DNA of 52,216 nt from Desulfobacterales bacterium (GTDB lineage Bacteria > Desulfobacterota > Desulfobacteria > Desulfobacterales > UBA11574). This document shows, piece after piece, positions 32,185 to 46,898 of this stretch (the stretch's first letter is position 1; each line of letters starts with the position of its first letter). Location of the stretch: assembly GCA_041548585.1 (NCBI GenBank), contig JBFESJ010000001.1:1-52216 (forward strand), written 5' to 3'. A program made the position numbers and the translations under genes. The notes under the pieces are model-generated. The model was not told where the DNA came from. It saw only the letters and a list, made by a program, of their open reading frames with translations, and ran no database searches.

Positions 32185-32223
32185 TGCGTTTTTCCTTTCT
32201 TCCAATAAGATTCTAAACAGCAA

Positions 32224-32796: not shown

Positions 32797-32812
32797 AGCA
32801 ACGAGCATGCCA
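32797..32812 (-). promoter_or_regulatory. sigma54 (-24/-12) promoter
   Basis: The minus strand reads TGGCATGCTCGTTGCT, an exact fit to TGGCA-N7-TTGC. Confidence 0.8.
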
Positions 32813-33231
32813 AATTCGTTTTTTATTTGCGATTAATCAAACTTGAAAAAAACCTATTATAATTTATTTCAACAAGTTGATTCTTTTTCTAAAAACAGCA
32901 CAAACATTAAGCTAAAAATGTTTAAACTTATTTTTTATGTTTTATGGCACCCATAATGTCCGTACTGGCACAAAACAAGAACGGCGAGTTCTGATTTTAT
33001 GCAAATTCGGAGCTGAATATTCCGAACTCGACTCGAGTTAAAATAAATGATGATGATATTTTATCAAAAAAATGCGTACATATTAGACCATGCCCACTTC
33101 ATCTGAATTCCGATAACGACGGTTAAGTTTTCAGATTACTATGGAATACTGTTTAGTGACATTAAGAATTCTTATAAGCAATTGTTCGAGTCATCGGGAA
33201 TCCAGAGGATCAAAAGGCGGATAGTTGGATT

Positions 33232-33247
33232 TGGCAGAGTTATTGCA
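33232..33247 (+). promoter_or_regulatory. sigma54 (-24/-12) promoter
   Basis: The motif is TGGCAGAGTTATTGCA, 97 nt upstream of the DksA-like ORF. Confidence 0.8.
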
Positions 33248-33918: not shown

Positions 33919-34445
33919 TAATTAATGTCATTCTATTCCCCATTCACCTGCCGTGATTGTTATCGAAAGAGATGCATTTTTTTGTGAATGGGCTCTTTTT
34001 AGTTTTGATTTAAGTGTTATTCTAATATGAAAATTCCTTCTCAAATAATTTAGAATCTCAATTGAGCGAAAGTCGAGAATGCTCCAGATCCCACCGATGG
34101 CGGGATCTCCGTTTCACTACGAGCGGCATAAAGAGCAAAGCTTCGCTATTCAAGGCAGGATAGACCTTTGCCGTCTAATGTGGCCCCTTGAAAACCAAGG
34201 AGATTCCCGCTTAAGGTGAGATTCCGCTGTGCTCAAGACGCATTCATCGGATTTCCTTACGGGTAAACAAAATAATGAAATAAACCCCTGTTGATACCTG
34301 TACTATATCCGTTTTATCGCAACCGAATTATAGTAGGGTAGCAGTCTGTAGTTTTATGTTTTTATATTTGTTTTTCGGCATGATTGAGGTAGAATCAAGC
34401 GGTAGATGCTATCCTCGGTGAGATATAGTTATTTTGGAAGGGCAG

Positions 34446-34975
34446 ATGAGGTCTGGCCTGATTACTTCGGAAAAATCGGGAGTTTAAAGGAAAATTCATA
34501 ACGCGTTAACCTTGGGAAGTTTTATCGACAAAGCCACCGAAATAAATGGGGTGGTTAAAGTCCTTGGATAAAAGCGGAGTGTCCTGGCCAAATTAATTTA
34601 CAGATACGGCAATCGGGAATATACTCAATTTATCTGTCTCCACTGCGGAGCTGTCCCGGATGCTCTTTTGGAAAGGGAGTTTTTCCGTTATGAAAAAAGT
34701 GCTTTCACAGGCGCTTTGAAAAAAAGTTGGGCAAATTTGAAATTGTGAGAAATGGGTCCTTGATTCTTGATAAGATCGGCACCATAATGCCTTTAGCTGC
34801 AAACGCCCGTCAAAAGGCTGTACAAGGTTTCGAAGAGCAATATATTAAAAAGACCTTCTGTTAAGAAATAAGGAAAAATAAACCTATCTGCTGCCCAAAA
34901 GGCCGGAATCAGGACCCGTCAACTGCATAACTCCACGCTTAAATACGGCCTTCGAAAAGAAGACTTCAAAACACA
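34446..34975 (+). pseudogene. decayed, internally deleted copy of the sigma54 activator gene at 39411-40817
   Basis: The nucleotide sequence is colinear with 39411-39540, about 39950-40185 and about 40640-40810 of the intact gene. The copy has frame disruptions and lacks roughly 400 and 455 nt. Its upstream region 33962-34060 matches 39258-39360. Confidence 0.85.
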
Positions 34976-35011: not shown

Positions 35012-35260
35012 TCAAATGAGATCATATTGATTGACTTGGATTAAATGTTTGCCGTCTACCCTGTCAGAAATGTTCCCGGAAACCATGACTTTGCGGTTTA
35101 TAAAATCCATTAGTTCTTTTCCGCAACGGTTCATTTTAACAATATACTCTTTTTCGTCATAACCTTGAATTGATATTAAGGCGACATTGCCATTATCATC
35201 CCAACCAGCTGCAACCACAATACCGGTAATAAATGGTTTTAGGTTTTTCATCGCGTTCAT
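35012..35260 (-). CDS. small protein, family member 2
   Basis: This 82-aa ORF is a paralog of 32478-32732 and has a consensus sigma54 motif 65 nt upstream. Confidence 0.7.
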   Translation of the reverse strand: MNAMKNLKPFITGIVVAAGWDDNGNVALISIQGYDEKEYIVKMNRCGKELMDFINRKVMVSGNISDRVDGKHLIQVNQYDLI

Positions 35261-35324: not shown

Positions 35325-35340
35325 TGCAAAGGGCGTGCCA
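35325..35340 (-). promoter_or_regulatory. sigma54 (-24/-12) promoter
   Basis: The minus strand reads TGGCACGCCCTTTGCA, a full consensus match. Confidence 0.85.
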
Positions 35341-35612
35341 AAATATGACCTATTGAAATACGCATGTTTTTTTGATTATTATCATCTATCAATAAGAACC
35401 GAATGTAGCGGTGAACCCTGTTAATCGTATGCGTTGTTACAGTTGTCGTTGATTAATCCAAATTGTATAAATATAATTTATAAACAGGGCTGCAATCAAA
35501 ACCGGTTCTTTGGAATTGGAGGTTTTATTTCGGACGATGTGAAAAATGGATGAAATCAAGACTGTATTTTCAATACATAGCGCCATGTTTACAATCATAC
35601 CAACGCGTTTTA

Positions 35613-35627
35613 GGAACTGGAAGTTCT
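35613..35627. promoter_or_regulatory. candidate enhancer-binding-protein site (GGAAC-N5-GTTCT palindrome)
   Basis: The sequence is GGAACTGGAAGTTCT. Its centre lies about 60 nt upstream of the GG of the 35678 sigma54 motif. Confidence 0.5.
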
Positions 35628-35677
35628 TTTAATGGCGTCCAAATTATAGATATAGTGTTATTTTAAAATGTTATATC

Positions 35678-35693
35678 TGGCATGTTTCTTGCT
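35678..35693 (+). promoter_or_regulatory. sigma54 (-24/-12) promoter
   Basis: The motif is TGGCATGTTTCTTGCT, upstream of the SET-domain gene. Confidence 0.8.
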
Positions 35694-35865
35694 ATTTGGT
35701 GATCCCTTTGCTAAACGAACGGTTTAACCAGAACATCCATCATAATAATTGGATAGTTCCCTGCAACCTCGACTCTAACGGCCGCAGGGAGCTCCAAAAA
35801 AAGTCTGGGCTTACTCTTTTCATGAAAACCAACTTTAAGTATAGTGAATAAGGGGGCGTTGAGAC

Positions 35866-36402
35866 ATGTGGCTGAATTTTAGTGTCAGGAAAAAGCTTTG
35901 TTTGAGTGATTGTTTACATGGAAAAGGTGTTTTTGCGGCTGAAGACATCCATGCAGAGGAAGAGATTTTACAATTCGGAGGACCTATCATCGGGCTCGAA
36001 GAACTCCCAAAACCATATACGGCCCAAGATGACTACTATCTTCAAATCGGTGCAAACATGTTTCTTGGCCCTTCCGGAAAATTGGATGATTATATAAACC
36101 ATTCGTGCACCGCAAATACTGTCGTGATATTTGATTCCGGTGTTATAAAACTTGTAGCTATCATTTTTATTCCCGCAGGGAATCAGATAACTTATGACTA
36201 TTCCACCACGATGGATAATTTCTGGTGGGAAATGGAGTGTGCCTGCGGTTCGGAAAATTGCCGACGAAAAGTAAAAAACTTTTTGGATCTTTCAGAACAG
36301 TTGCAATCGAAATATATCAATATGGGCATTGTGCCGGAATACATTCTTAAAAAACTGCCAAGGATACAATTGAGCATATCTGATAGTTGCCATGCTTTAT
36401 AA
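35866..36402 (+). CDS. SET-domain protein (putative lysine methyltransferase) with post-SET Cys motif
   Basis: The 178-aa ORF has an AAGGGGG RBS and the blocks GKGVFAAEDI, INHSCTANT, ITYDY and CACGSENCRRK. Confidence 0.75.
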   Translation: MWLNFSVRKKLCLSDCLHGKGVFAAEDIHAEEEILQFGGPIIGLEELPKPYTAQDDYYLQIGANMFLGPSGKLDDYINHSCTANTVVIFDSGVIKLVAIIFIPAGNQITYDYSTTMDNFWWEMECACGSENCRRKVKNFLDLSEQLQSKYINMGIVPEYILKKLPRIQLSISDSCHAL

Positions 36403-36454
36403 AAGATAAAGTTTAATTTTAACCAAATAACATTATGCATTCTGAGGTTTTAAA

Positions 36455-37012
36455 TTGAATAAAATAATTCCTAAATCTATGTTTTTTACCAAAGGCGTGG
36501 GGTATCACCGCAACAAATTACAAAGTTTTGAGCTGGCCTTGAGGCAAGCCGGAATTGAAAAGTGCAATCTTGTTTTCGTATCCAGTATTTTCCCGCCGGA
36601 TTGCAAAATTATCTCAAGAGAAGCTGGAATGAAAAAATTGAAAGCCGGACAAATTACCTTTAGCGTGCTTTCCCAGGAAAGTACCAACGAACCCAATCGC
36701 CTGATTTCAGCCGCCATCGGATTAGCTCGACCAAAAAATAGCAAACAGTATGGATACCTTAGCGAACACCATGCCTATGGCGAAACCATGAGAAAATCAG
36801 CCAATTTTGCTGAAGATTTGGCAGCCACCATGCTGGCCTCCACCCTGGGAATCGAACTGGATCCTGATGTGGCTTGGGATGAGCGCAAACAAGTATACAA
36901 AGTCGGCAAGCGTATGTTTAAATCTCGTAGCGTTGCCCAATCGGCAAAGGGTCATAAAGACGGATTGTGGACAACTGTTGTCGCCAGTGCGGTTTTTCTG
37001 CTGGATGAGTAA
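36455..37012 (+). CDS. pdaD: pyruvoyl-dependent arginine decarboxylase
   Basis: The ORF starts at a TTG with a GAGG RBS. The blocks FFTKGVGYH and NLVFVSSIFPP (Ser-Ser self-cleavage site) are typical of PdaD. Confidence 0.85.
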   Translation: MNKIIPKSMFFTKGVGYHRNKLQSFELALRQAGIEKCNLVFVSSIFPPDCKIISREAGMKKLKAGQITFSVLSQESTNEPNRLISAAIGLARPKNSKQYGYLSEHHAYGETMRKSANFAEDLAATMLASTLGIELDPDVAWDERKQVYKVGKRMFKSRSVAQSAKGHKDGLWTTVVASAVFLLDE

Positions 37013-37084
37013 GCACAATTAATGGGATTGCTTTTAGTTTATTATGGCCACTCCAAGTTTAATGAAATTCAAGGACGATTCAAA

Positions 37085-38152
37085 ATGCCAAAAAAATCTA
37101 TATTCATAGACTTCCCTAATATTATTCCACCGTCCATTTCTAAAGGGATGTCGATTTCAGACCTGGTAGATGCCTTGGGACAAACATCTTTTGAGGCCCG
37201 AAATGTCTTTCGCGGAACCCGGCTTTATAAACGTATGATAGACGATAACGATACAATCTGGCTTGGTATCGCTGGAGCAGGTGTCGCTGGTGGTATGGGT
37301 GGAATGTTGAGTTCTTTACTCGAAGCCGGGTTTGTTGATGTTATCTGTTCAACCGGGGCCCAAGTATATCACGATTTGCATTTTGCTTTTGATCTCCCGG
37401 TCAAAGCCATATCGCCTTTTTGCAATGACGACGTTCTCAGGCGTCACGGTGATACCCGCATATATGATATCGGCATCCGAGAAAAAGAAACGCTTCAGGC
37501 TCAAGATGAAATCATACGTAGCTTTATCAGAGATTGTTTTCGAGATCACCTATCAAAAGGTTCACTTGCCAGTTGGGAATTTAACTTTGAGCTTGGGAAT
37601 TGGGTATTAAACAACAGTAAATACCCGGAACGAAGTTTCGTTGCTTGTGCAGCCCGCCATAAGATTCCGATATTCTGGGATTCTCTGGCCAATCATTCCA
37701 TTGCAATGAATCTAGTGCAAACAGACAGAGAAGGCTTTCCGATAATACTGTCCGCCCAAAAAGATATTTTTGATTCAGCAGCAATTGTTTTCTCATCCAG
37801 CCGTACAGGTTTTATTGTGCTTGGGGGCGGTGGGCCTAAAAATTTTATACAGCAAACCGGACCGACCATCAGTCAAATTCTCAAAATAAATTATGAGGGT
37901 GCGGGGCGCGGACTTCAGATCGGGAGCGCCATTGAAAAAGAGGGAAGCTTATCCGGATGTACCTTCAGCGAATCGGTAACCTGGGGCAAATACCGATCGG
38001 CAGATGAAGAGATGTTGGTCCAGATCTGGGGTGAATACAGTGTTATCTTTCCGATTATAGCTGCGTATTTGTTGGACAATTGTGAAAATAAATCTTCAAA
38101 AAAAATAATGGCTCGCATGCCGGAGTACATCAAAAATCTAGAACATTCTTAA
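37085..38152 (+). CDS. deoxyhypusine-synthase-like protein (possible homospermidine-type aminobutyl transferase)
   Basis: The blocks are GGGGPKNF and ESVTWGKY, the latter giving the catalytic-Lys context. I prefer the ATG at 37085 with an AAGGA RBS; the ORF opens at 37022. Confidence 0.75.
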   Translation: MPKKSIFIDFPNIIPPSISKGMSISDLVDALGQTSFEARNVFRGTRLYKRMIDDNDTIWLGIAGAGVAGGMGGMLSSLLEAGFVDVICSTGAQVYHDLHFAFDLPVKAISPFCNDDVLRRHGDTRIYDIGIREKETLQAQDEIIRSFIRDCFRDHLSKGSLASWEFNFELGNWVLNNSKYPERSFVACAARHKIPIFWDSLANHSIAMNLVQTDREGFPIILSAQKDIFDSAAIVFSSSRTGFIVLGGGGPKNFIQQTGPTISQILKINYEGAGRGLQIGSAIEKEGSLSGCTFSESVTWGKYRSADEEMLVQIWGEYSVIFPIIAAYLLDNCENKSSKKIMARMPEYIKNLEHS

Positions 38153-39072
38153 TGAAATTATATTCCAAACAATTTCTTGGTATCGGTTCGGAGTTTTCCG
38201 AATTCAAGCGTTCGGCTGTTGCCGTTTTGCCACTTCCATACGAAGGTGGTTGTACCTATGGCAAAGGTACGGCCGGAGGACCGGATGCAGTGATTGAAGC
38301 GTCTTATCATTTAGAGCTGTACGATGAGTTTTTAGCCGCCGAACCATATAGAATGGGAATTGTAACCGTTATGCCACCGGAAATCTGCTCGGATCCAAAC
38401 AGGATGCAAGAAGCTATTTACCAGAGTTCATTAGCGCTGATACAAGAAAAAAAATTCGTTGTGGCGGTTGGGGGTGATCACTCCATCAGCATCGGTTATT
38501 TTAAGGCGCTATATGAAAAATACAATCAACTATCAATCATACAACTCGATGCCCATGCAGACTTAAGAGAAACCTATGATAACAATCCCTTTAGTCATGC
38601 GTGTGTGATGTCTCGCATCCGGGAGTTTACATGCGATACTCTGCAAATCGGTATTCGAAGTATGTCTTTAGAAGAAGCCCGTCGAATAGAAAGAGAAAAT
38701 ATAGCGGTTTGGACAATGTCTGACTATCGAAGGGGGAAGTTTGACTTGGATAGTGCAATGGACTGTCTTCCGAACCCGGTATATTTAACATTTGATGTTG
38801 ATGTCTTTGACTGGAGTGTTGTTCGCAGCACGGGCACCCCTGAACCGGGTGGTTTGTTATGGGACGAAGCGATGACATTATTGCAAAAAATCTTTACAAA
38901 GAAAAACATTGTCGGATTTGATGTTGTAGAACTTTCCGGCAACCGTCATGACCGGAACTCAGCCTTTGCAGTTGCCAAGCTTATTTATAAAATGTTGGGA
39001 TTTAAACTTGATGGGGAAGTGCACAGAGGGTTGCTGAAATGGCCGGAGAAACCCTCTGGAAATTTATTTTAA
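38152..39072 (+). CDS. speB: agmatinase / ureohydrolase (arginase family)
   Basis: The ORF has the Mn-binding blocks GGDHSIS, LDAHADLR and LTFDVDVFD. Confidence 0.85.
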   Translation: MKLYSKQFLGIGSEFSEFKRSAVAVLPLPYEGGCTYGKGTAGGPDAVIEASYHLELYDEFLAAEPYRMGIVTVMPPEICSDPNRMQEAIYQSSLALIQEKKFVVAVGGDHSISIGYFKALYEKYNQLSIIQLDAHADLRETYDNNPFSHACVMSRIREFTCDTLQIGIRSMSLEEARRIERENIAVWTMSDYRRGKFDLDSAMDCLPNPVYLTFDVDVFDWSVVRSTGTPEPGGLLWDEAMTLLQKIFTKKNIVGFDVVELSGNRHDRNSAFAVAKLIYKMLGFKLDGEVHRGLLKWPEKPSGNLF

Positions 39073-39228
39073 TCACCCCCCCCCCTCATTTTGCGTTCAC
39101 GTTTAACGAAATTTGTTAGTTTCATAAAAATTTATAAATCTCTTATCATCCTGCGGATCTTTTTCCAGCTGCAGTCTATCTTTCCTTCTCTATGCTTCAC
39201 TATAAGCTTTCGGAATGCCCACCAAATA

Positions 39229-39243
39229 AGAATTTTGAGTTCC
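39229..39243. promoter_or_regulatory. candidate activator-binding palindrome upstream of the activator gene (AGAAT-N5-GTTCC)
   Basis: The sequence is AGAATTTTGAGTTCC, directly followed by cccTTGACA. The half-sites match those at 35613, 41017 and 43332. Confidence 0.35.
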
Positions 39244-39410
39244 GATTCCCTTGACAAAGATAGTCATTGAAAGAGAATCATTTTTTTTTGCACGGGCTCT
39301 TTTTATGTTTGATTTAAGTGTTGTTCTAATATAAAAATCCTGTTCTAAAGAATAAAGAATCAGGCGATAAAGGTCATTCCCTGTAAGATATAAATATTCA
39401 GGAGAAACAG

Positions 39411-40817
39411 ATGAGGTATGCTCTTATTGCTTCGGAAAAACCGGAAGCTTATAGAAAAATTTATGATGCTTTAAACCCAGGATATTTCATCGACAAAACC
39501 ACCGAAGTAAATGGGGTGGTTAAAGCCCTTGGAAAAAAGCGTTATGATCTTATTTTTATTGATATTGAGATTCTCTTTCGTTCGACCCAAGGCGCTGATT
39601 ATACAGATGTTCTGCAAAAGTTTAAACAATTATGTCCTACAATTGATATCGTTGTTATGGCCAGACCGGACATGATCAGAGAGACGGTCAAAGCCGTAAA
39701 AGCAGGTGCCAGTGATTACCTTACACTCCCTTTAGATCCGGATGAAATTCAACTGGTGACCGAAGACATCCGCGAATCGATTATTAAAGAATCCGAGCTC
39801 GATTATTTAAGAGAACAGCTCTGGAGATCGGATTTGCTGGAAATGGCTCATACCGATAATCCTGTTGTAAAAGAAGTTTTTAAAAAGTTGCGTTCAGTTG
39901 CACCGACAAAAACGACTGTTTTACTGAGCGGTGAAACAGGTACGGGAAAAGGTGTATTGGCAAAATTAATTCACAGGTATAGTAATCGGGAACATGCTCA
40001 ATTCATTTGTCTTCACTGCGGGGCCGTTCCAGACACTCTTTTAGAAAGCGAGCTGTTCGGTCATGAAAAAGGCGCTTTCACAGGCGCTTTGAAAAAAAAG
40101 TTGGGGAAATTTGAAATTGCGAGAAATGGAACCCTGTTCCTTGATGAAATCGGCACCATAACGCCTTCAGCGCAGGTTAAACTTTTGCAAGTTTTACAAG
40201 ATGGCACCTTTAGTCCCGTGGGTGCTGAAAAAACCATATCAACCAACGCAAGAATTATTACCGCAACGAATTCCGATCTAAAGAAAATGACCGAGGATGG
40301 TGATTTCAGAAAAGACTTATATTATCGTCTCAATGTCTTTCCTATCGAAATTCCGCCTTTAAGAAAAAGAAAAGAGGATATTCCTTTACTGATCCAATTT
40401 TTTCTAAAGAAACTGAGCAAAGATTTCCAAAAGGATATCAAAGACATACATCCTCAAGTCAAAGAAGCTTTTAAAAAATATTCATGGCCGGGAAATATCA
40501 GAGAGTTGGAAAACCTTTTAGAGCGGGCGTATATATTGGAAACTTCTGATTTGCTAACTCCCGAAAGTTTCCCTGCCGAGTTGTTTGAAAAAGAAATGTC
40601 ATCGGCTGTTTTGTCGATGGATACGGATGTTTCCCTCTCAGAAGCGCGTCAAAAGGCCGTACAAGGTTTCGAAAGACAATATCTTAAAGAGCTGATGTTA
40701 AGAAATAAGGGAAAAATAAACCAATCCGCCCAAGAGGCTGGCATCAGTACCCGTCAACTCCATAAACTTATGCTTAAATACGGTATTCGAAAAGAAGACT
40801 TTAAAAAGAGGGCCTGA
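39411..40817 (+). CDS. sigma54-dependent transcriptional activator (NtrC family) with atypical receiver domain
   Basis: The 468-aa ORF has Walker A GETGTGKG, the sigma54 contact loop GAFTGA and a C-terminal Fis-type HTH. The N-terminal receiver-like domain lacks the acidic DD pair and the KP lysine. Confidence 0.9.
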   Translation: MRYALIASEKPEAYRKIYDALNPGYFIDKTTEVNGVVKALGKKRYDLIFIDIEILFRSTQGADYTDVLQKFKQLCPTIDIVVMARPDMIRETVKAVKAGASDYLTLPLDPDEIQLVTEDIRESIIKESELDYLREQLWRSDLLEMAHTDNPVVKEVFKKLRSVAPTKTTVLLSGETGTGKGVLAKLIHRYSNREHAQFICLHCGAVPDTLLESELFGHEKGAFTGALKKKLGKFEIARNGTLFLDEIGTITPSAQVKLLQVLQDGTFSPVGAEKTISTNARIITATNSDLKKMTEDGDFRKDLYYRLNVFPIEIPPLRKRKEDIPLLIQFFLKKLSKDFQKDIKDIHPQVKEAFKKYSWPGNIRELENLLERAYILETSDLLTPESFPAELFEKEMSSAVLSMDTDVSLSEARQKAVQGFERQYLKELMLRNKGKINQSAQEAGISTRQLHKLMLKYGIRKEDFKKRA

Positions 40818-40827
40818 TTCTGTCGGG

Positions 40828-41000
40828 AAATAATTAAAGCGAGTACACCACCTGAATCGAGATGCGAAATTGGCGCGTTCTTTAAAAATGAGTACGTGCC
40901 CACGGGGTTGCTTTCCCGCCACTACGAAGACTTTTTTTCTCCACTTCTACGGTCTTTCCGATATGATTCAATAAAGTTGAAAATCACATCCGAATAGGAA
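40828..41000 (-). pseudogene. remnant of a small-protein gene plus terminator (copy of 42811-43011)
   Basis: Positions 40828-40885 match the terminator region 42811-42870. Positions 40931-40998 match 42953-43011 inside the 98-aa gene at about 75% identity by eye. No intact ORF remains. Confidence 0.5.
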
Positions 41001-41016
41001 TCATTTGACCACAACC

Positions 41017-41031
41017 GGAACTCTTGATTCC
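41017..41031. promoter_or_regulatory. candidate enhancer-binding-protein site (GGAAC-N5-ATTCC palindrome)
   Basis: The sequence is GGAACTCTTGATTCC. Its centre lies about 62 nt upstream of the GG of the 41085 sigma54 motif. Confidence 0.5.
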
Positions 41032-41084
41032 GATTTTTCATAAAAAAAAGTAAAATAATTCTTTAATATTGACAGGTTATGATC

Positions 41085-41100
41085 TGGCATACCTCTTGCT
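41085..41100 (+). promoter_or_regulatory. sigma54 (-24/-12) promoter
   Basis: The motif is TGGCATACCTCTTGCT, 45 nt upstream of the speD ATG. Confidence 0.8.
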
Positions 41101-41145
41101 ATCTTGAAGCCACAAAATTCAATTGTTATTTAAGAAGGTGTGCTG

Positions 41146-41550
41146 ATGAAATCTTTGGGTAACCATCTCATCATTGAACTTTATGACTGTAAAGCAGAGA
41201 TTATTAATGACCTCCATAGGGTTGAAGACATCCTTATGGAATCCGTTAACATATCTGGTGCGGAAATCATATCACCGGTCTTTCATAAGTTTAATCCACA
41301 CGGAGTAAGCGGCGTCATCGTCATTGCAGAATCTCATTTTTCCATACACACATGGCCTGAATACGGCTATTGTGCGGTGGATATTTTTACTTGCGGGGAT
41401 ACCATCGATAGCCATAAGGCTCTGATCTTTATAAAAAAAGCTTTTAAAGCAAAATCAATATCCGTTGTTGAAACCAAACGCGGTATCCTGAATTTGCCCG
41501 TTGAAAAAATCAAATACAAACCTGAACAGGTTGACCAAAATGTTGTATGA
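41146..41550 (+). CDS. speD: S-adenosylmethionine decarboxylase proenzyme (class 1, SpeH/SpeD type)
   Basis: The ORF has MKSLGNHLIIELYDC and the self-processing block VIAESHFSIHTWPEYGY. I prefer the ATG at 41146 with an AAGAAGG RBS. Confidence 0.85.
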   Translation: MKSLGNHLIIELYDCKAEIINDLHRVEDILMESVNISGAEIISPVFHKFNPHGVSGVIVIAESHFSIHTWPEYGYCAVDIFTCGDTIDSHKALIFIKKAFKAKSISVVETKRGILNLPVEKIKYKPEQVDQNVV

Positions 41551-41941
41551 TAAAGAATATGCTGAACTCAAATCACGCTTTGAAGAGAAACGGTCATGGG
41601 GGATGCTGTCAAGTATCGACCTTTATGGGTGCGACCCTGCTCTGATACGTGATGCTGACAAGATCAAGGAATTCGTTAAATTATTATGTGAAAAGATAAA
41701 GATGAAGCGGTATGGTGAAACGGTTGTGGTCCATTTTGGCCAAGATCCGAGAGTCTCCGGATTTTCAATGACACAACTCATTGAAACATCACTCATCTCA
41801 GGACATTTTGCCAATGAGTCAAACAGCGTATATATTGACGTCTTTAGCTGTACGTTTTATCATCCGTGGAAAGTTGCCGAATTTACAAAAGCATTCTTTA
41901 AAGCCCAAAATTATAAAATTCATATTGTATTGAGAAAATGA
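41540..41941 (+). CDS. divergent AdoMetDC-fold paralog (Thr-Ser instead of Glu-Ser at the processing site)
   Basis: LIETSLISGHFANESNSVYIDVFSC aligns with VIAESHFSIHTWPEYGYCAVDIFTC of speD. The ATG at 41540 overlaps the speD stop by 11 nt. Confidence 0.6.
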   Translation: MLYDKEYAELKSRFEEKRSWGMLSSIDLYGCDPALIRDADKIKEFVKLLCEKIKMKRYGETVVVHFGQDPRVSGFSMTQLIETSLISGHFANESNSVYIDVFSCTFYHPWKVAEFTKAFFKAQNYKIHIVLRK

Positions 41942-42759
41942 AATGGATTCGTGATAAGTGGGCGCCTAATGGAGCGGCCACAAATGTAAAAGTTGTAAGA
42001 CACCTGGAATCTTATTCCTCTAAATTTCAGAAAATTGATGTATATGAGACAGCAAAGCTCGGGAAGATGCTTTTACTGGATGATATCATCATGTTAACGG
42101 AATATGATGAGTTCGCATATCATGAAATGATCGTACATCCGGCACTGCACGTTCATCCGAAGGTAAAAAAAGTATTGGTCGTTGGCGGGGGAGACGGAGG
42201 AACTGTCAGGGAGATATTGAAACATTCCGATATCCAAGAAGTCCATGTGTGTGAAATTGATGAAGAGGTCATCTCGGTCTGTAAAAAACATTTTCCAACC
42301 CTTGCGTTGGGATTTGATGACCCTAAAGTAAAGATATTTTTTGAAGACGGGGCTTTCTTTGTTCAGGAAAGAAAAAATGAATATGATCTGATTATTGTGG
42401 ATTCATCCGACCCCATCGGACCGGCGGAAGTCCTTTTTCAGGAACAGTTTTACAGAAACATGTTCGATGCTTTAAAGGAAGACGGTATTACCGTAACTCA
42501 ATCGGAAGGCATGTTCTTTGATAGAGAAACCATCAGAAAATTGTTTGCATTCAATCGCAACATCTTTCCAATCCTTTATTACTATTTCACGATGGTACCG
42601 ACATATCCTTCCGGTACCATCGGATTTTCGTTTTGCTCAAAGAAACACCATCCCATAAAAGACATATATACAAAAAAAGGAATCACGACAAGATATTACA
42701 CCCCGGACATACACAAGGGCTCATTTATCTTGCCAAGATTTATGGACGATATCGTCTAA
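41938..42759 (+). CDS. speE: spermidine synthase (aminopropyltransferase)
   Basis: The ORF has the blocks VLVVGGGDGGTVREILKH and IIVDSSDPIGPA and overlaps the upstream gene by ATGA. Confidence 0.88.
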   Translation: MKWIRDKWAPNGAATNVKVVRHLESYSSKFQKIDVYETAKLGKMLLLDDIIMLTEYDEFAYHEMIVHPALHVHPKVKKVLVVGGGDGGTVREILKHSDIQEVHVCEIDEEVISVCKKHFPTLALGFDDPKVKIFFEDGAFFVQERKNEYDLIIVDSSDPIGPAEVLFQEQFYRNMFDALKEDGITVTQSEGMFFDRETIRKLFAFNRNIFPILYYYFTMVPTYPSGTIGFSFCSKKHHPIKDIYTKKGITTRYYTPDIHKGSFILPRFMDDIV

Positions 42760-42819
42760 CTCGGCGTCTTTATTCCAGGCAGATAGAACATTTTGGTAGA
42801 TCAGAACCATGAAATAATA

Positions 42820-42869
42820 AAAGCGAGCGCACGACCTGCATCGAAATACGAGATCGACGCTCGCTTTTA
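42820..42869. terminator. bidirectional intrinsic terminator between speE and the convergent 98-aa gene
   Basis: AAAAGCGAGCG (42820-42830) pairs with CGCTCGCTTTT (42859-42869). A/T runs flank the stem on both sides. Confidence 0.6.
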
Positions 42870-42873
42870 AAGA

Positions 42874-43170
42874 TTATGATTCTGTTTTTTCCAGTATTTT
42901 ATAAGATTTTACATGAATGACCTTGGCGCCTTCCTCTTCGATGACTTCGCCGATGACTTCTACGGCCTTACCGACATGATTCAACAAATCGTTGCCCATA
43001 TCCGTATCTGCAACTTCATACACGGTGCCGTTTTCTGCAACAATCTGATATGTGTCGTTGATCGTTCCGGTTATGGTGATTTCGTCGGCGAATACCGGAT
43101 TTGAACACATCAATATAAACGAAAAAACGCATATTATTCCTGCTGCAATCCATCTGAACTTTTTATCCAT
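42874..43170 (-). CDS. small secreted protein, family member 3 (signal peptide + same core pattern)
   Basis: The 98-aa ORF has the signal peptide MDKKFRWIAAGIICVFSFILMCSNPVFA. The core ITITGTI...VYEVADTDMGNDLLNHVGKAVEVIGEVIEEEGAKVIHVKSYKIL follows the pattern of the 84/82-aa proteins. Confidence 0.65.
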   Translation of the reverse strand: MDKKFRWIAAGIICVFSFILMCSNPVFADEITITGTINDTYQIVAENGTVYEVADTDMGNDLLNHVGKAVEVIGEVIEEEGAKVIHVKSYKILEKTES

Positions 43171-43262
43171 TTTATGTCTCCTCTCATTCTGGTGTTTAGT
43201 TTAAAAAGACAACCGCGATGACTTTTCACGAGTCTACCAAGCGTTCTATGAAAGACTAACTT

Positions 43263-43278
43263 AGCAATATGTATGCCA
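43263..43278 (-). promoter_or_regulatory. sigma54 (-24/-12) promoter
   Basis: The minus strand reads TGGCATACATATTGCT. Confidence 0.8.
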
Positions 43279-43331
43279 GTATAAATAAAGGCTGAAAATA
43301 ACGGAATTCAATTCTTTACAAGAGGCGTTTC

Positions 43332-43346
43332 AGAACTCAGGATTCC
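43332..43346. promoter_or_regulatory. candidate enhancer-binding-protein site (AGAAC-N5-ATTCC palindrome)
   Basis: The sequence is AGAACTCAGGATTCC. Its centre lies about 62 nt upstream, on the minus strand, of the GG of the 43263 sigma54 motif. Confidence 0.5.
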
Positions 43347-43697
43347 GAGCGTTTAAAAGAAATTCTTGTTTTGCGGTTGTTGGGGCAATTTTATTAAGAC
43401 ACACCATTTAAAAAAAGTGACATCCTTATTTTAAGAATAAGGGAATTTTATGAAGCAATAGTTCCGATTTTCTTAAAGGAGAACTTAGCGTTCGGTTTTA
43501 CGACGCAAAAACGTATGTTTTCTCATAAAAACCATTCGGTTTAATTGAATATGTCTTTCCGGTTTTTGCTGATAATTCTCAAATTTTAAAATGATTTAAA
43601 ACCGATATTCACATTTTATTCTATCGTTTTTAATAAAAATTTAGATAGTTAATCAAAAATCGCATCGTTGATTTTAAGCCAAGACCCAGTTTTTAAA

Positions 43698-43729
43698 TCA
43701 TAACCAAGAGTCCCGGAATCAGGTTATGA
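43698..43729. promoter_or_regulatory. 8-bp perfect inverted repeat (TCATAACC-N16-GGTTATGA) upstream of the 43766 sigma54 promoter
   Basis: The repeat is seen directly and its centre lies about 54 nt upstream of the promoter GG. The sequence differs from the GGAAC-type palindromes. Confidence 0.35.
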
Positions 43730-43765: not shown

Positions 43766-43781
43766 TGGCATGACTGTTGCT
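43766..43781 (+). promoter_or_regulatory. sigma54 (-24/-12) promoter
   Basis: The motif is TGGCATGACTGTTGCT, 62 nt upstream of the methyltransferase::ATP-grasp ORF. Confidence 0.8.
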
Positions 43782-43842: not shown

Positions 43843-45846
43843 ATGTCACCATTGAAAAAGACAGCCAAAAAGTCTTTAAAAACGAAAAAGAAAACAGACA
43901 AGCGCGTCACCACTTTAGGACCCGTAGAGGACCTTGAAAACTACGTTCCGTCGGATTGGTGGAACTGCATCTTTAATTCGCTTTATCTTAAAACGGATTC
44001 GGACGTTGTGGAAGATATTCATATGACACGTAAAGAAGTCGATCTGTTTTCTAAGATTGTCGACCTGAAAAATGAGGACAATATTCTTGATCTATGTTGT
44101 GGTCAAGGGCGACACGTTTTGGAACTTTCTCGAAGAGGGTTTAAAGCCGAAGGACTGGACAGGTCGCGCTTTTTGGTTCAAAAGGCAAAAGCAACGGCAA
44201 GAAAAGAGAATATCAGTGTTAGAATCAGGGAGGGAGATGCCAGAAAACTCCCCTTTTCTCCGGACGCTTTTGAGGTTGTCATGATGCTTGGAAACAGCTT
44301 CGGATATTTTGAAACTGTCCAGGACGACCTGAGGATATTAAAGGAAATATTCAGGGTGTTAAAACCCTGGGGAAGACTGCTTCTTGATGTGACGGACGGT
44401 GAATATCTTAAAAAGAATTTTCAAAACCGATCATGGGAATGGATTGATAAGAAACTATTTGTTTGCAGGGAACGCACCCTTTCCGCAGACGAACAGCGTC
44501 TTATTTCAAGAGAAATCGTAACGGATGTGACCAAAGGAATCATTGCAGACCAGTTTTATGCCGAAAGGCTTTACACAAGAGAAAATCTTCTGAAATTAAT
44601 TGAAAAAGCGGGTTTTTCCGATGCAGTAGTTCACGGTGAAATCTCTACAAACTCGGTAAGGAATCAGGATCTTGGAATGATGGAAAAACGAATCATCATC
44701 ACCGGAAAGGTAAAGAAAGAGTGGAGCCGCGTCCCTAAAAAATTAAAAAAAGATCCCAAAAAAAAGATCGTCGTTATTTTCGGTGATCCAAACAAGCCCG
44801 ATTCATTGAAACCTTGCGGAGTTTTCGACGACGACGATTTTTACACCATTGACCAATTGAAATCGGCGCTGCAGACATTGCCCGAATATGATTTCAGCTA
44901 TCTGTCTAACCACGATACCATGATTCAGGATTTAAACAAAAAGTCCGGAAAAATTCATTTTGTCTTTAACCTCTGTGACGAAGGCTTTAACAATGATCCT
45001 CGAAAGGAACTTCATCTTCCGGCACTACTTGAAGTACTTGATATACCTTACACCGGGTCTTCCACCCAGTGCCTTGCATTCTGCTACGACAAATCACTGG
45101 TACGCGGGATCGCTAGTGAAATGGGAATCCCGGTTCCAGAAGCGTTTTTCATCGAACCGGATGACACGACCTTTAACTTGCCGTTTTCCTTTCCGGTCAT
45201 TGTTAAGCCCAACTATGGAGATTCCAGTTTCGGCATTACACAACAAAGTGTTGCAAACAACCATGAGCAACTCCTCAACGCAATCTCTATGATTCGAGAA
45301 AAATTGGGTTATGACAAACCGATTCTTGTTGAAGAATTCTTGACCGGAAAAGATTTGAGTGTCGGTATTATCGGGAACCCCCTGACATCTTATAATGTTT
45401 TGCCCATAGCAGAAGAGAATTATTCGGCTGTTCCTAAAGAACTGCCAAGGGTTTGCGGATATGAAGCAAAGTGGCTTCCGGATTCCCCGTATTACAAAAT
45501 CAAAACTGTTCCAGCAAAATTGCCGGAAAAAACAGAAAAGTTCATTGTGGAATGCTGTATGAAGTTGTTTGAGAGACTGGAATGCAGGGATTACAGCCGG
45601 TTTGACTGGAGGCTCGACGCAAAAGGACATCCCAAGCTTCTGGAAGTCAATCCAAACCCCGGCTGGTGTTGGGACGGTCATCTGGCAAAAATGGCAAAAT
45701 TTGCAGAAATGTCCTATGCGGAGATGGTACAGGCGATTCTGGGCGCTGCTGAACAGCGACTTCAAAGTACTCATGTTTCAGACGTTCCTGTTTGCACAGA
45801 AGAAACCCGCACAGTACAACCGAAAACCGCTTTTAACCGGAGCTAA
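43843..45846 (+). CDS. fusion protein: class-I SAM methyltransferase + D-Ala-D-Ala-ligase-like ATP-grasp
   Basis: The 667-aa ORF has an AAGGAGG RBS and a Lys-rich N-terminus. Methyltransferase motif I is ILDLCCGQGRH. A Lys-rich linker leads to the ATP-grasp blocks FPVIVKPNYGDSSFGI, ILVEEFLTGKDLSV and LLEVNPNPGW. Confidence 0.75.
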   Translation: MSPLKKTAKKSLKTKKKTDKRVTTLGPVEDLENYVPSDWWNCIFNSLYLKTDSDVVEDIHMTRKEVDLFSKIVDLKNEDNILDLCCGQGRHVLELSRRGFKAEGLDRSRFLVQKAKATARKENISVRIREGDARKLPFSPDAFEVVMMLGNSFGYFETVQDDLRILKEIFRVLKPWGRLLLDVTDGEYLKKNFQNRSWEWIDKKLFVCRERTLSADEQRLISREIVTDVTKGIIADQFYAERLYTRENLLKLIEKAGFSDAVVHGEISTNSVRNQDLGMMEKRIIITGKVKKEWSRVPKKLKKDPKKKIVVIFGDPNKPDSLKPCGVFDDDDFYTIDQLKSALQTLPEYDFSYLSNHDTMIQDLNKKSGKIHFVFNLCDEGFNNDPRKELHLPALLEVLDIPYTGSSTQCLAFCYDKSLVRGIASEMGIPVPEAFFIEPDDTTFNLPFSFPVIVKPNYGDSSFGITQQSVANNHEQLLNAISMIREKLGYDKPILVEEFLTGKDLSVGIIGNPLTSYNVLPIAEENYSAVPKELPRVCGYEAKWLPDSPYYKIKTVPAKLPEKTEKFIVECCMKLFERLECRDYSRFDWRLDAKGHPKLLEVNPNPGWCWDGHLAKMAKFAEMSYAEMVQAILGAAEQRLQSTHVSDVPVCTEETRTVQPKTAFNRS

Positions 45847-45914
45847 AAACCTGCTGAAAGACTGTTGTCCAAAACACTTTTCGTTGGCTCTGAAACGTTT
45901 TTTGATAAATCAAA

Positions 45915-46898
45915 ATGAACGACAATAAAACCAACCCACTAAACCCAAAAATCCGATACTCATTTTTCAAAATACCCACAGGATCCGATCTTTCGAAAAG
46001 GCGGTTACCGATTATGTCTGCGGACAGCGGAAATCCGGGACCCGTTGTGTGGCTGACGGCCTGTAGTCATGGCGACGAAGTCGGAGGTGTTGTAATTATC
46101 CAAGAGATATTCAAAAAAATCCGTCGGGGGAAAAATCTTATTAAGGGCGCTATTTTTGCTTTTCCCCTGATGAATCCGATCGGTTTTGAAACGGCCTCCC
46201 GGCATATCACGTTAAGTAAAGAAGATCTCAACCGTTCCTTTCCGGGCAATAAAGACGGCTCTCTAGGGGAGAGAATAGCGGATATTATATTTACGACGAT
46301 TCTTAAAACGAATCCCAGGATTGTTTTGGATCTTCACAATGATTGGATCAAATCAATGCCTTATGCGTTGATTGATCCGGATCGCGATCCCAAGCTTTCC
46401 GATGTCAACCGAACCAGCGAATTTTTTGCTTCAACAACCGGATTATTGGTGGTGCGTGACACGGAAGAACTTCACAAATCTCTTTGCGCCAGTTTGCATA
46501 AACACAATATACCGGCACTGACACTGGAACTTGGAGAACCTAATATTATTAACGAAAAAAATGTCGAATATGGTGTAAGATCCATCGAAAAAATTTTGTT
46601 ATATCTTGAAATGATTAAACCGGTGAACGAGCCGTTCCAATATCAGATCCCCGAGATTTACAACGGTAAAATCCTCAAATATTTCGCCAAGCCCTACAGT
46701 ACAACCAGTGGTATAATCAGATTTCTGGTTAAGCCGGGAGATGTTGTTAAAAAAGATCAGAACCTGGCTAAAATCTACAATACGTTTGGGAGATTACAAA
46801 AAACGCTGACCGCTTTACACGACGGCATTGTTTTAGGGCATTGCGACTCTTGTGTTGCATTTCCCGGAATGCCGGTTCTGGCATTTGGAATAGAATAG
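45915..46898 (+). CDS. succinylglutamate-desuccinylase/aspartoacylase-family (M14-like) zinc deacylase
   Basis: The 327-aa ORF has the blocks ACSHGDEVGG (HxxE) and VLDLHND. Confidence 0.7.
   Translation: MNDNKTNPLNPKIRYSFFKIPTGSDLSKRRLPIMSADSGNPGPVVWLTACSHGDEVGGVVIIQEIFKKIRRGKNLIKGAIFAFPLMNPIGFETASRHITLSKEDLNRSFPGNKDGSLGERIADIIFTTILKTNPRIVLDLHNDWIKSMPYALIDPDRDPKLSDVNRTSEFFASTTGLLVVRDTEELHKSLCASLHKHNIPALTLELGEPNIINEKNVEYGVRSIEKILLYLEMIKPVNEPFQYQIPEIYNGKILKYFAKPYSTTSGIIRFLVKPGDVVKKDQNLAKIYNTFGRLQKTLTALHDGIVLGHCDSCVAFPGMPVLAFGIE

What the first reader, a model, noticed from the sequence alone, without database searches (positions are those of the whole stretch)
35613..43346. Shared RGAAY-N5-RTTCY palindrome at a fixed ~60-nt distance from three sigma54 promoters, plus one upstream of the activator gene
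GGAACTGGAAGTTCT (35613-35627), GGAACTCTTGATTCC (41017-41031) and AGAACTCAGGATTCC (43332-43346) each have their centre 59-63 nt upstream of the -24 GG of a sigma54 motif. The downstream units are the SET-pdaD-DHS-speB operon, the speD operon and the 98-aa secreted protein.

A fourth copy, AGAATTTTGAGTTCC (39229-39243), lies about 170 nt upstream of the NtrC-type activator gene and abuts a TTGACA hexamer, which suggests autoregulation. The constant spacing is what an enhancer-binding-protein UAS would show.

The other four sigma54 promoters lack this palindrome and carry different repeats: AAGAATTCTT at 33164 and TCATAACC-N16-GGTTATGA at 43698. This hints at more than one activator input.
Basis: partly seen in the sequence, partly recalled or inferred. 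Interest (0 to 1): 0.65.

Follow-up and report, generated by a model that had tools for sequence, protein, structure and literature searches.

The report
Activator binding sites at sigma-54 promoters
A short palindromic DNA motif next to several sigma-54 promoters is very probably the docking site of the activator protein encoded in the same gene cluster, which appears to switch on polyamine synthesis and stress genes in sediment sulfate-reducer-like bacteria; the design is classical, but this regulator, its motif and its gene set seem undescribed.

Summary
All four palindromes lie at the stated coordinates, three of them 59, 62 and 62 nt upstream of the -24 GG of exact sigma-54 promoters.

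The main interpretation, that the palindrome is an activator site (UAS), is strongly supported by comparison, not by experiment.
- The full motif is ATCGGAAC-N5-GTTCCGAT.
- Half-sites are conserved and spacers vary in loci whose activator is 52-91% identical.
- A metagenome scan with a free 40-60 nt gap gave 130 hits, 99 of them with the centre 61-65 nt from GG.
- 36 of the 120 loci found by DNA pattern alone encode an ortholog of the window's activator.
- About 70% of these modules carry an IHF-consensus box 14 nt upstream of GG.
- About half also have two unselected distal sites, 103 and 133 nt beyond the proximal one.

Two side claims fail or stay open.
- The divergent zf_Tbcl/dksA region does carry the motif, as a conserved tandem pair. 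A second activator input is therefore not needed.
- Autoregulation through the fourth copy is plausible but not conserved in close relatives.

Targets in relatives include small beta-proteins, GroES, Hsp20, USP, HU, DksA and polyamine genes. The architecture is classical; the regulator family and regulon look new. Interest is moderate.

The parts
41014..41034 (.). Site 2: ACCGGAACTCTTGATTCCGAT. Activator site with centre 62 nt upstream of the GG of the speD-operon promoter.
   Evidence: Best motif-matrix score in the window, 25.9 bits. In L081/L082 (activator 91% identical) it is ATCGGAACTATCTGTTCCGAT at 61 nt, with a different spacer.
43329..43349 (.). Site 3: TTCAGAACTCAGGATTCCGAG. Centre 62 nt upstream of the GG of the minus-strand promoter of the 98-aa secreted protein.
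   Evidence: 17.7 bits. Homologs of the 98/84/82-aa proteins are the commonest gene class behind the same module in metagenomes, 34 of 95.
35610..35630 (.). Site 1: TTAGGAACTGGAAGTTCTTTT. Centre 59 nt upstream of the GG of the SET-pdaD-DHS-speB promoter and 281 nt from the divergent 82-aa promoter.
   Evidence: 16.0 bits; the core is perfect but the flanks are poor. In L156 a SET-pdaD-DHS-speB operon has the same module at 63 nt, next to an activator ortholog 66% identical.
39226..39246 (.). Site 4: ATAAGAATTTTGAGTTCCGAT. No sigma-54 promoter nearby. Centre 175 nt upstream of the activator ATG.
   Evidence: 21.7 bits, second best in the window. It ends 5 nt before the -35 of a sigma-70-like promoter. 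It is not present upstream of the activator gene in L081, L083, L087, L088 or L090.
32975..32995 (.). Distal member of a tandem pair in the divergent region.
   Evidence: 17.0 bits. Half-sites are conserved and the spacer varies in L081, L083 and L087 (alignment A3). It lies 174-179 nt from the conserved minus-strand promoter in five loci.
33006..33026 (.). Centre 31 nt from site A.
   Evidence: 13.7 bits. It reads TCGGAAC-N5-RTTCCGA in L083, L087 and L088, 205-210 nt from the minus-strand promoter.
39411..40817 (+). Enhancer-binding protein, 468 aa: atypical receiver, AAA+ sigma-54 interaction domain with GAFTGA, and a Fis-type HTH.
   Evidence: Pfam Sigma54_activat 3e-65 and Response_reg 2e-9. 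HTH_8 scores 20.6 bits, against a cut-off of 22. Orthologs 48-66% identical lie in 36 of 120 loci found by DNA pattern alone.
35678..35693 (+). Sigma-54 promoter TGGCATGTTTCTTGCT, driving SET-pdaD-DHS-speB (35866-39072).
41085..41100 (+). Sigma-54 promoter TGGCATACCTCTTGCT, driving speD, a speD paralog and speE (41140-42759).
   Evidence: Conserved in L081/L082.
43263..43278 (-). Sigma-54 promoter TGGCATACATATTGCT, driving the 98-aa gene (42874-43170).
   Evidence: Metatranscriptome contigs of relatives cover the gene and its leader up to 43232, with nothing further upstream.
32797..32812 (-). Sigma-54 promoter TGGCATGCTCGTTGCT, driving 84aa - zf_Tbcl - HU (32732 down to 31915).
   Evidence: It reads TGGCATGTTCGTTGCT in all five relatives examined.
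33232..33247 (+). Sigma-54-like promoter TGGCAGAGTTATTGCA (1 mismatch), driving dksA plus an 84-aa zinc-ribbon gene.
   Evidence: TGGCAG/A-N5-TTGCA is conserved in L081, L083, L087, L088 and L090.
35325..35340 (-). Sigma-54 promoter TGGCACGCCCTTTGCA, driving the 82-aa small beta-protein (35012-35260).
   Evidence: The nearest strong site is site 1, 281 nt upstream.
43766..43781 (+). Sigma-54 promoter TGGCATGACTGTTGCT, driving the methyltransferase/ATP-grasp fusion and an AstE-like gene.
   Evidence: The nearest strong site is site 3 at 428 nt. There are weak sites centred at 43458 and 43487, scoring 7.4 and 4.2 bits.
32870..32882 (-). Perfect IHF consensus AATCAACTTGTTG, centre 65 nt upstream of the GG of the 32811 promoter, between the tandem pair and the promoter.
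   Evidence: YAA-N4-TTGAT is kept in L081 and nearly kept in L083 and L087 (alignment A3).
41067..41079 (+). Degenerate IHF-like box TATTGACAGGTTA (2 mismatches), centre 13 nt upstream of GG.
   Evidence: In relatives, 52 modules have a box with at most 1 mismatch exactly 14 nt upstream of GG. The window's own boxes are weak.
39251..39278 (+). Sigma-70-like promoter TTGACA-16-GAGAAT just downstream of site 4.
   Evidence: 10 of 12 matches. This is a consensus match only.
33955..34971 (+). Decayed duplicate of the activator locus: upstream block, 5' end and two internal pieces.
   Evidence: blastn 77-82% identity and tblastn 63-72% identity to the activator. It shows that the SET-pdaD-DHS-speB block was inserted between dksA and the activator in this lineage; compare L081.

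Best explanation
The palindrome is the core of a 21-bp dyad, consensus ATCGGAAC-N5-GTTCCGAT. It is the upstream activator site of the sigma-54 enhancer-binding protein encoded at 39411-40817.

Proposed mechanism (inferred): a dimer binds each dyad through the C-terminal Fis-type helix-turn-helix. Bound protein assembles into the AAA+ hexamer, contacts sigma-54 holoenzyme held at the -24/-12 promoter, and opens it by ATP hydrolysis.

There are two promoter layouts.
- Compact: one site centred about 62-63 nt upstream of the -24 GG, with an IHF-type bending box between site and promoter. In relatives this box is strong and fixed 14 nt from GG. About half of the relatives' promoters add two further in-phase sites about 103 and 133 nt beyond the proximal one, giving three dimer sites.
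- Classical: a tandem pair about 175 and 206 nt upstream, with an IHF box at about 65 nt. This is the zf_Tbcl-HU promoter.

The tight spacing reflects the need to keep activator, bend and promoter on fixed helical faces.

In the window one activator can serve all seven promoters. It would co-induce polyamine synthesis (arginine to agmatine to putrescine; AdoMetDC and spermidine synthase; a homospermidine/deoxyhypusine-synthase-like enzyme), HU, DksA, zinc-ribbon proteins and three small beta-proteins. In relatives the same module drives GroES, Hsp20, USP, MscS-type channels and lysine-2,3-aminomutase, so the regulon looks like a stress response. The signal is unknown.

What is shown: the motif, its spacing, its conservation, and its co-occurrence with the activator gene. 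What is inferred: binding by this protein, a role for IHF, and the stress function.
For: Enrichment in the window: 6 matches against 1.23 expected.

Phylogenetic footprint: in the divergent region two dyads keep their half-sites while the spacers change, across loci whose activator is 91, 74 and 65% identical (A3). The same positions recur in L088, L090 and L092, the last from Desulfonema magnum.

Specificity:
- 78 loci of non-orthologous activators (837 kb) hold 10 core palindromes and no palindrome-promoter pair within 400 nt. Seven orthologous loci (175 kb) hold 24 core palindromes and 25 pairs.
- Among the 80 activator loci from genome contigs, only the two orthologs carry strong sites next to the gene. 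These are L001 and L002 (52-55% identical; L002 is labelled a Calditrichaeota MAG). Both have an IHF box plus TGGCAC.

Spacing: a metagenome scan with a free 40-60 nt gap gave 130 hits. 99 of them have the centre 61-65 nt from GG, with the mode at 63.

Unspecified positions in those hits become A-T before CGGAAC and G-A-T after GTTCC, at 58-69% each. Off-peak hits show no such bias.

Co-occurrence: 36 of the 120 pattern-found loci encode an activator 48-66% identical over its full length. Non-orthologous activators reach at most about 40%.

Independent sites: unselected distal sites peak at 165-168 and 195-198 nt. 59 of 122 promoters that have the proximal site also have both distal sites.

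IHF box: at most 1 mismatch in 70 of 99 modules, against 14.9 in shuffles; 52 lie exactly 14 nt from GG.

A matrix built from the metagenome hits separates six window sites (13.7-25.9 bits) from everything else (7.8 bits or less).

In L156 the same module drives SET-pdaD-DHS-speB next to an activator ortholog.

The recognition helix ISTRQLHKLM-KYG is conserved across orthologs and differs from that of other activators.
Against: There is no binding or expression experiment.

Desulfobacteria are reported to carry 50-70 activators per genome (PMC12316311), so a paralog with a similar HTH could be the binder.

The window's own polyamine promoters have only one site each and only degenerate IHF-like boxes.

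Site 1 has poor flanks and sits at 59 nt, off the mode of 63 nt.

The HTH_8 match is just under Pfam's cut-off.

The metagenome hits are partly related loci, so the counts are not independent events.

The motif matrix inherits the search pattern at ten positions.
Confidence: 0.8

Rival explanations
1. The dyad is a real regulatory site but is bound by a different protein: a paralogous enhancer-binding protein encoded elsewhere, or a repressor or anti-activator that gates these sigma-54 promoters. The neighbouring activator would then recognise something else.
For: These bacteria encode dozens of activators (PMC12316311). No experiment links this protein to this DNA. The window itself holds a decayed second copy of the activator, which shows the family duplicates.
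Against: Motif and ortholog travel together across 52-91% identity, and the association apparently crosses phyla. The recognition helix is conserved with the motif. The geometry fits an activator enhancer: in-phase sites 63, 166 and 197 nt upstream with an IHF box. It does not fit an operator overlapping the promoter.
Confidence: 0.12
2. The shared palindrome and its constant distance are a by-product of duplicated promoter cassettes. The whole upstream segment would have been copied along with paralogous small-protein genes, and the palindrome itself would have no function.
For: L114 carries four modules in 9.3 kb, two with near-identical spacers. The main target family is a set of paralogous small proteins.
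Against: Within the window the three modules share little apart from the dyad, an AT-rich spacer and the promoter. In orthologous alignments the half-sites are kept while the central 5 nt and the flanks diverge. The module precedes unrelated genes: speD, SET, GroES, Hsp20, USP and a sigma-70-family factor.
Confidence: 0.04
3. The matches arise by chance in AT-rich intergenic DNA.
For: The core has only ten specified positions, four of them degenerate. One in-gene match (37301) is indeed noise.
Against: The window has 6 matches against 1.23 expected, and 0 of 100 shuffles reached 6. The spacing histogram is sharply peaked. The flanks are non-randomly palindromic. Control loci have almost none.
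Confidence: 0.01

Closest known systems
NtrC (NR-I) sites at glnAp2 of enteric bacteria
   Same: A dimer of a receiver-AAA+-Fis-HTH activator binds a dyad with a 5-nt centre (from my knowledge: TGCACC-N5-GGTGCA). Two sites about three helical turns apart nucleate the oligomer. Here the tandem pairs are 30-32 bp apart.
   Different: The half-site sequence is different. The receiver lacks the conserved Lys and the acidic pair, so phosphorylation control is doubtful. No histidine kinase gene is adjacent in any locus examined. The protein does not reach NCBIfam's ntrC cut-off, scoring 336 against 559 bits. The regulon is not nitrogen assimilation.
NifA-dependent nif promoters, XylR/Pu, and the OrpR/orp promoters of Desulfovibrio vulgaris (UAS - IHF site - sigma-54 promoter)
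   Same: The same three-part layout, with an IHF-consensus box between activator site and promoter. The dependence of orp operons on IHF in a sulfate reducer is reported in PMC3897727 (title and abstract seen).
   Different: The compact version here is unusually tight and rigid: site centre about 63 nt and IHF box centre 14 nt from the -24 GG. UASs are usually said to lie 100 bp or more upstream (PMC4641369). Nor is there any sensory GAF, V4R or PAS domain.
NorR-type three-site enhancers
   Same: Three dimer sites upstream of one sigma-54 promoter would deliver six protomers, one hexamer. That all three NorR sites are required is from my knowledge. Here 59 of 122 promoters have three phased sites.
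   Different: In NorR the three sites are clustered. Here one is proximal and two lie about 100-130 bp further out. The window's polyamine promoters have only the proximal site.
Comparative-genomics regulon reconstructions for sigma-54 activators (Desulfovibrio vulgaris regulome, PMC4641369)
   Same: The same kind of inference: co-localised activator, conserved dyad and sigma-54 promoter.
   Different: None of the site lists in that paper's supplements contains this dyad. The only substring hits belong to a TGT-N11-ACA motif. A full-text search for the half-sites together with sigma54 found nothing relevant.

Membership tests
Upstream activator site of a bacterial enhancer-binding protein | An enhancer-binding protein with an AAA+ sigma-54 interaction domain (GAFTGA loop) is encoded with the sites. 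| tested here: met
   Sigma54_activat 3e-65 and AAA_lid_14 3e-27. GAFTGA is present in the translation. Orthologs occur in 36 of 120 pattern-found loci.
Upstream activator site of a bacterial enhancer-binding protein | The activator has a C-terminal DNA-binding helix-turn-helix. | tested here: met
   HTH_8 at E = 3.7e-4 and 20.6 bits, slightly under the 22-bit gathering score. HTH_8 is precomputed for several orthologs. The helix is strongly conserved.
Upstream activator site of a bacterial enhancer-binding protein | A dyad-symmetric site lies upstream of a -24/-12 promoter, with position and helical phase constrained. | tested here: met
   Distances are 59, 62 and 62 nt in the window. The metagenome mode is 63 nt, with distal peaks at about 166 and 197 nt.
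Upstream activator site of a bacterial enhancer-binding protein | The site is conserved in orthologous regulatory regions while neighbouring bases drift. | tested here: met
   Alignments A2 and A3 and loci L081-L092, L001 and L002.
Upstream activator site of a bacterial enhancer-binding protein | The activator physically binds the site, and promoter activity depends on it. | not testable with these tools
   This needs EMSA, footprinting, DAP-seq or reporter assays.
NtrC-subfamily two-component response regulator | A canonical receiver: N-terminal acidic pair, phospho-acceptor Asp, Thr/Ser and Lys. | tested here: not met
   Aligned to Aquifex NtrC1 (1ny5), the Asp is kept (D51). The Lys position is Leu in the window and Tyr or Cys in orthologs. 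The acidic pair is Ser-Glu/Lys. Thr is Ala or Ser.
NtrC-subfamily two-component response regulator | A cognate histidine kinase is encoded next to the regulator. | tested here: not met
   No kinase is adjacent in the window or in L081-L092, L001 or L002. PAS kinases lie about 9 kb away in the window and in L081 only.
Sigma-54 (-24/-12) promoter | The TGGCAC-N5-TTGCW consensus with GG and GC ten bases apart, upstream of a gene. | tested here: met
   Six exact matches and one 1-mismatch match against 0.10 expected, each 60-190 nt upstream of an ORF.
Sigma-54 (-24/-12) promoter | rpoN is present in the genome. | not testable with these tools
IHF-assisted sigma-54 promoter | A WATCAANNNNTTR box lies between the activator site and the promoter. 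| tested here: met
   Relatives: 70 of 99 modules have at most 1 mismatch, against 14.9 in shuffles, and 52 sit at a fixed 14 nt from GG. Window: a perfect box at 32870-32882, but only 2-mismatch boxes at the three compact promoters.
IHF-assisted sigma-54 promoter | IHF is encoded and bends this DNA. | not testable with these tools
   The genome could not be searched. An HU/IHF-family gene (Bac_DNA_binding) lies at 31915-32223 and is itself in the regulon.

The most novel reading that the evidence does not exclude
This would be a widespread, so far undescribed sigma-54 stress regulon of sediment Desulfobacterota, also present in a Calditrichota-labelled MAG. It would be run by an enhancer-binding protein whose receiver domain has lost the residues needed for normal phosphotransfer, so the protein would sense something other than a kinase. 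It would work through a rigid enhancer: three in-phase dimer sites plus an IHF box abutting the -24 element. It would co-induce polyamine synthesis, nucleoid and RNA-polymerase-binding proteins (HU, DksA), chaperones (GroES, Hsp20), and a large family of uncharacterised small beta-proteins.
Probability: 0.45. Interest if true: 0.65.

Novelty: new member of a known kind. Interest (0 to 1): 0.5.

Why it matters
The result gives a concrete, testable motif (ATCGGAAC-N5-GTTCCGAT) and promoter grammar for an unnamed activator family that is abundant in marine and estuarine sediment metagenomes. With it, the family's regulon can be read directly from sequence.

It places polyamine biosynthesis under sigma-54 control together with chaperones, HU, DksA, mechanosensitive channels and a large family of unknown small proteins. 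That gives those unknown proteins a functional context, probably a stress response.

The very narrow spacing distribution and the frequent three-site layout make this a clean natural system for studying how activator position, DNA bending and hexamer assembly are coupled.

Tried and rejected

An exact look-up of the window's activator found no record. Rfam found nothing in the window.

The genome-contig scan returned mostly non-orthologous activators, at most about 40% identical. I used them as a negative control.

The pattern match inside the DHS-like gene (37301-37315) was rejected as a site: 4.0 bits, in coding sequence.

A hairpin or terminator reading was rejected. The arms are only 5 bp, the loops vary, and the position is upstream of promoters.

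I could not trace it in more distant methyltransferase/ATP-grasp promoters, because too few N-termini were available in the loci. Its role stays open. AAGAATTCTT is kept, with one change, only in the closest relative and not at 74% or 65%.

Metatranscriptome contigs come from 90-95% relatives and are too sparse to map transcription starts. They show only that the 98-aa gene, speD and the activator are expressed, and that no contig crosses the promoters.

The literature searches found no description of this motif or regulon. That is not proof of absence.

An earlier scan note on GTTCC-N4-GGAAC sites in Myxococcota describes a different, everted motif and was not used.

Full report
**1. Observation**

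RGAAY-N5-RTTCY occurs six times in the window against 1.23 expected, and none of 100 shuffles reached six.

Seven sigma-54 -24/-12 motifs, six of them exact against 0.10 expected, all lie between 32797 and 43781. The centre-to-GG distances are 59, 62 and 62 nt.

Pfam confirms the gene content:
- SET, pyruvoyl arginine decarboxylase, a deoxyhypusine-synthase-like enzyme and agmatinase;
- two AdoMetDC genes and spermidine synthase;
- a 98-aa signal-peptide protein;
- a 468-aa activator with receiver, AAA+ and lid domains.

Homologs of the activator that are 90-95% identical come from sediment metagenomes. Those that carry a source name are called Desulfobacterales.

**2.

I aligned the divergent region between the 84aa-zf_Tbcl-HU operon and dksA with loci whose activator is 91, 74 and 65% identical. 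Two dyads stand out as the most conserved blocks. Their half-sites are kept and their central five bases differ (A3). In the window they are centred at 32985 and 33016.

The same pair sits 174-179 and 205-210 nt from the invariant minus-strand promoter in five loci. So the statement that these promoters lack the palindrome is wrong. It holds only within about 130 nt of the promoter.

**3. Specificity**

- 78 loci around non-orthologous activators (837 kb) hold 10 core palindromes, 50 sigma-54-like motifs and no pair within 400 nt.
- Seven orthologous loci (175 kb) hold 24 palindromes and 25 pairs. Their distances cluster at 59-62, 174-179 and 205-210 nt.

**4. An independent test at scale**

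I scanned JGI metagenomes for CGGAAY-N5-RTTCY, a free gap of 40-60 nt, then TGGCAY-N5-TTGC. Chance hits would spread evenly over the 21 possible gap lengths. Instead 99 hits have the dyad centre 61-65 nt from GG, with the mode at 63.

In these hits the positions I did not specify become A-T before CGGAAC and G-A-T after GTTCC, each at 58-69%. Off-peak hits show no such bias. The consensus is therefore ATCGGAAC-N5-GTTCCGAT.

36 of the 120 loci, many only 1-5 kb long, encode an activator 48-66% identical to the window's over its full length. Unrelated activators reach at most about 40%.

A matrix built from these hits separates six window sites from everything else:

| Centre | Score (bits) | Name |
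|---|---|---|
| 41024 | 25.9 | site 2 |
| 39236 | 21.7 | site 4 |
| 43339 | 17.7 | site 3 |
| 32985 | 17.0 | site A |
| 35620 | 16.0 | site 1 |
| 33016 | 13.7 | site B |

The next best score is 7.8 bits. The in-gene match at 37301 scores 4.0.

Of the 80 genome-contig loci, only the two orthologs carry strong sites beside the activator gene, each followed by an IHF box and TGGCAC. They are L001 and L002, 52-55% identical; L002 is labelled Calditrichaeota.

**5. Promoter grammar**

The spacer of the compact modules is AT-rich, with 30% G+C. It carries an IHF-consensus box (WATCAANNNNTTR) with at most one mismatch in 70 of 99 cases, against 14.9 in shuffles with a maximum of 21. The box has one orientation in 65 of those 70. 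Its centre is exactly 14 nt upstream of GG in 52.

Further motif sites that my pattern did not select peak at 165-168 and 195-198 nt. 59 of 122 promoters with a proximal site have both, lying about 103 and 133 nt beyond the proximal site. That makes three in-phase dimer sites.

The zf_Tbcl-HU promoter uses the textbook layout: a tandem pair, then a perfect IHF box at 32870-32882, then the promoter.

The window's three compact promoters have one site each and only 2-mismatch IHF-like boxes.

**6. Regulon**

Behind the compact module in metagenomes lie the following:
- homologs of the window's 98/84/82-aa proteins, 34 of 95;
- an unannotated 123-aa family, 11;
- GroES, 6;
- YitT, 4;
- in smaller numbers: Hsp20, USP, an MscS-type channel, lysine-2,3-aminomutase, a PLP enzyme, CBM48 proteins, a sigma-70-family factor, zf_Tbcl, DksA-like, speD and SET.

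In L156 the module drives SET-pdaD-DHS-speB beside an activator ortholog 66% identical. This independently supports the polyamine operon as a target.

Neighbourhoods of orthologs also hold MscS, K+ channel, CorA and SLC12 genes. A stress regulon, perhaps osmotic or heat, is the best guess. It is an inference from gene content only.

**7. The activator**

It meets no NCBIfam equivalog cut-off. The C-terminal HTH_8 match is borderline at 20.6 bits, but the helix ISTRQLHKLM-KYG is conserved across orthologs and differs from other activators.

The receiver keeps the acceptor Asp (D51). It lacks the acidic pair and the conserved Lys, which is Leu, Tyr or Cys in all orthologs, including L001 and L002. 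No kinase gene is adjacent in any locus. Control is therefore probably not ordinary phosphotransfer. This too is an inference.

**8. Site 4 and autoregulation**

Site 4 is strong and ends 5 nt before the -35 of a sigma-70-like TTGACA-16-GAGAAT.

However, the window carries a decayed duplicate of the activator locus at 33955-34971. The 91% relative has dksA followed directly by the activator, with no polyamine block between them. There only the right half-site is recognisable. No site lies upstream of the activator gene in the 74, 69 and 65% relatives.

In some distant orthologs, sites lie about 145-175 nt upstream of the activator gene. There they are the distal pair of a divergent sigma-54 promoter. 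Autoregulation in this genome is plausible, about even odds, but it is not a conserved feature.

**9. Expression**

Metatranscriptome contigs from 90-95% relatives cover the 98-aa gene and its leader up to 43232 but nothing upstream of the promoter. They also cover the activator's 3' end and speD, but not the intergenic region between them. This is consistent with separate transcripts, though the data are sparse.

**10. Comparison and novelty**

The system works like NtrC, NifA or OrpR enhancers: dyad sites, an IHF bend and a sigma-54 promoter.

It is not a canonical NtrC. The receiver is atypical, there is no kinase partner, and it falls below the family cut-offs. The compact layout is tighter than the usual 100 bp or more (PMC4641369).

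I found no paper or site list containing this motif.

Verdict: a real and well-supported activator site. It is a new member of a known kind, of moderate interest.

**11. Limits**

- There is no experiment.
- The metagenome hits are not phylogenetically independent.

Noticed in passing
window 33955-34971: A decayed duplicate of the activator locus: the upstream block, the 5' end and two internal pieces, 77-82% identical, with large deletions. An extra segment of about 330 bp (34058-34390) lies between the upstream block and the start. Compared with L081, the 82-aa gene and the SET-pdaD-DHS-speB operon appear to have been inserted between dksA and the activator in this lineage.
   Followed up: partly
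window 42874-43170 (-), 32478-32732 (-), 35012-35260 (-): Three paralogous small proteins, one secreted and two cytoplasmic, with no Pfam or NCBIfam match. Their homologs are by far the commonest gene behind the motif/sigma-54 module in metagenomes, 34 of 95. This is an uncharacterised family with a clear regulatory context.
   Followed up: partly
metagenome loci, e.g. L184, L114, L210: A second family without Pfam match, about 123 aa with the stretch ...RKPQ.LPQAVGRDL.V.L.KDP.WVW.L..VVRK...GKHRYNVRVFD.... It follows the same module in 11 of 95 cases. L114 carries four modules in 9.3 kb.
   Followed up: no
L001 1962-4599; metagenome loci L106, L102: Lysine-2,3-aminomutase-like radical SAM genes, in L001 followed by a Ddl-type ATP-grasp gene, sit behind the module. 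In the window a methyltransferase/ATP-grasp fusion plus an AstE-like hydrolase (43843-46898) has its own sigma-54 promoter. This may be synthesis of a beta-lysine or amino-acid-derived solute; it is untested.
   Followed up: no
window 39066-39076: A run of about ten C directly after the speB stop codon, at the start of the window-specific sequence that carries site 4. It is a slippage-prone homopolymer at a rearrangement edge.
   Followed up: no
window 40761-40807 and 42818-43014 (RNA run X25, one 270-nt contig): One metatranscriptome contig of a relative joins the activator's 3' end to the 3' end of the 98-aa gene with about 27 other letters between them. That relative therefore lacks the speD-speD-speE operon at this place, so the polyamine operons are accessory insertions into the island.
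   Followed up: no
window 43698-43729: The inverted repeat TCATAACC-N16-GGTTATGA lies 53 nt upstream of the methyltransferase/ATP-grasp promoter. Its arms are conserved in the 91% relative while the centre changes. It encloses a single CGGAAT half-site. Its function is unknown.
   Followed up: partly
window 39411-40817 and orthologs (A4): The receiver domain of the whole activator family lacks the conserved Lys and the acidic pair but keeps the acceptor Asp. It also has a 3-residue insertion after beta-3 relative to Aquifex NtrC1.
   Followed up: partly
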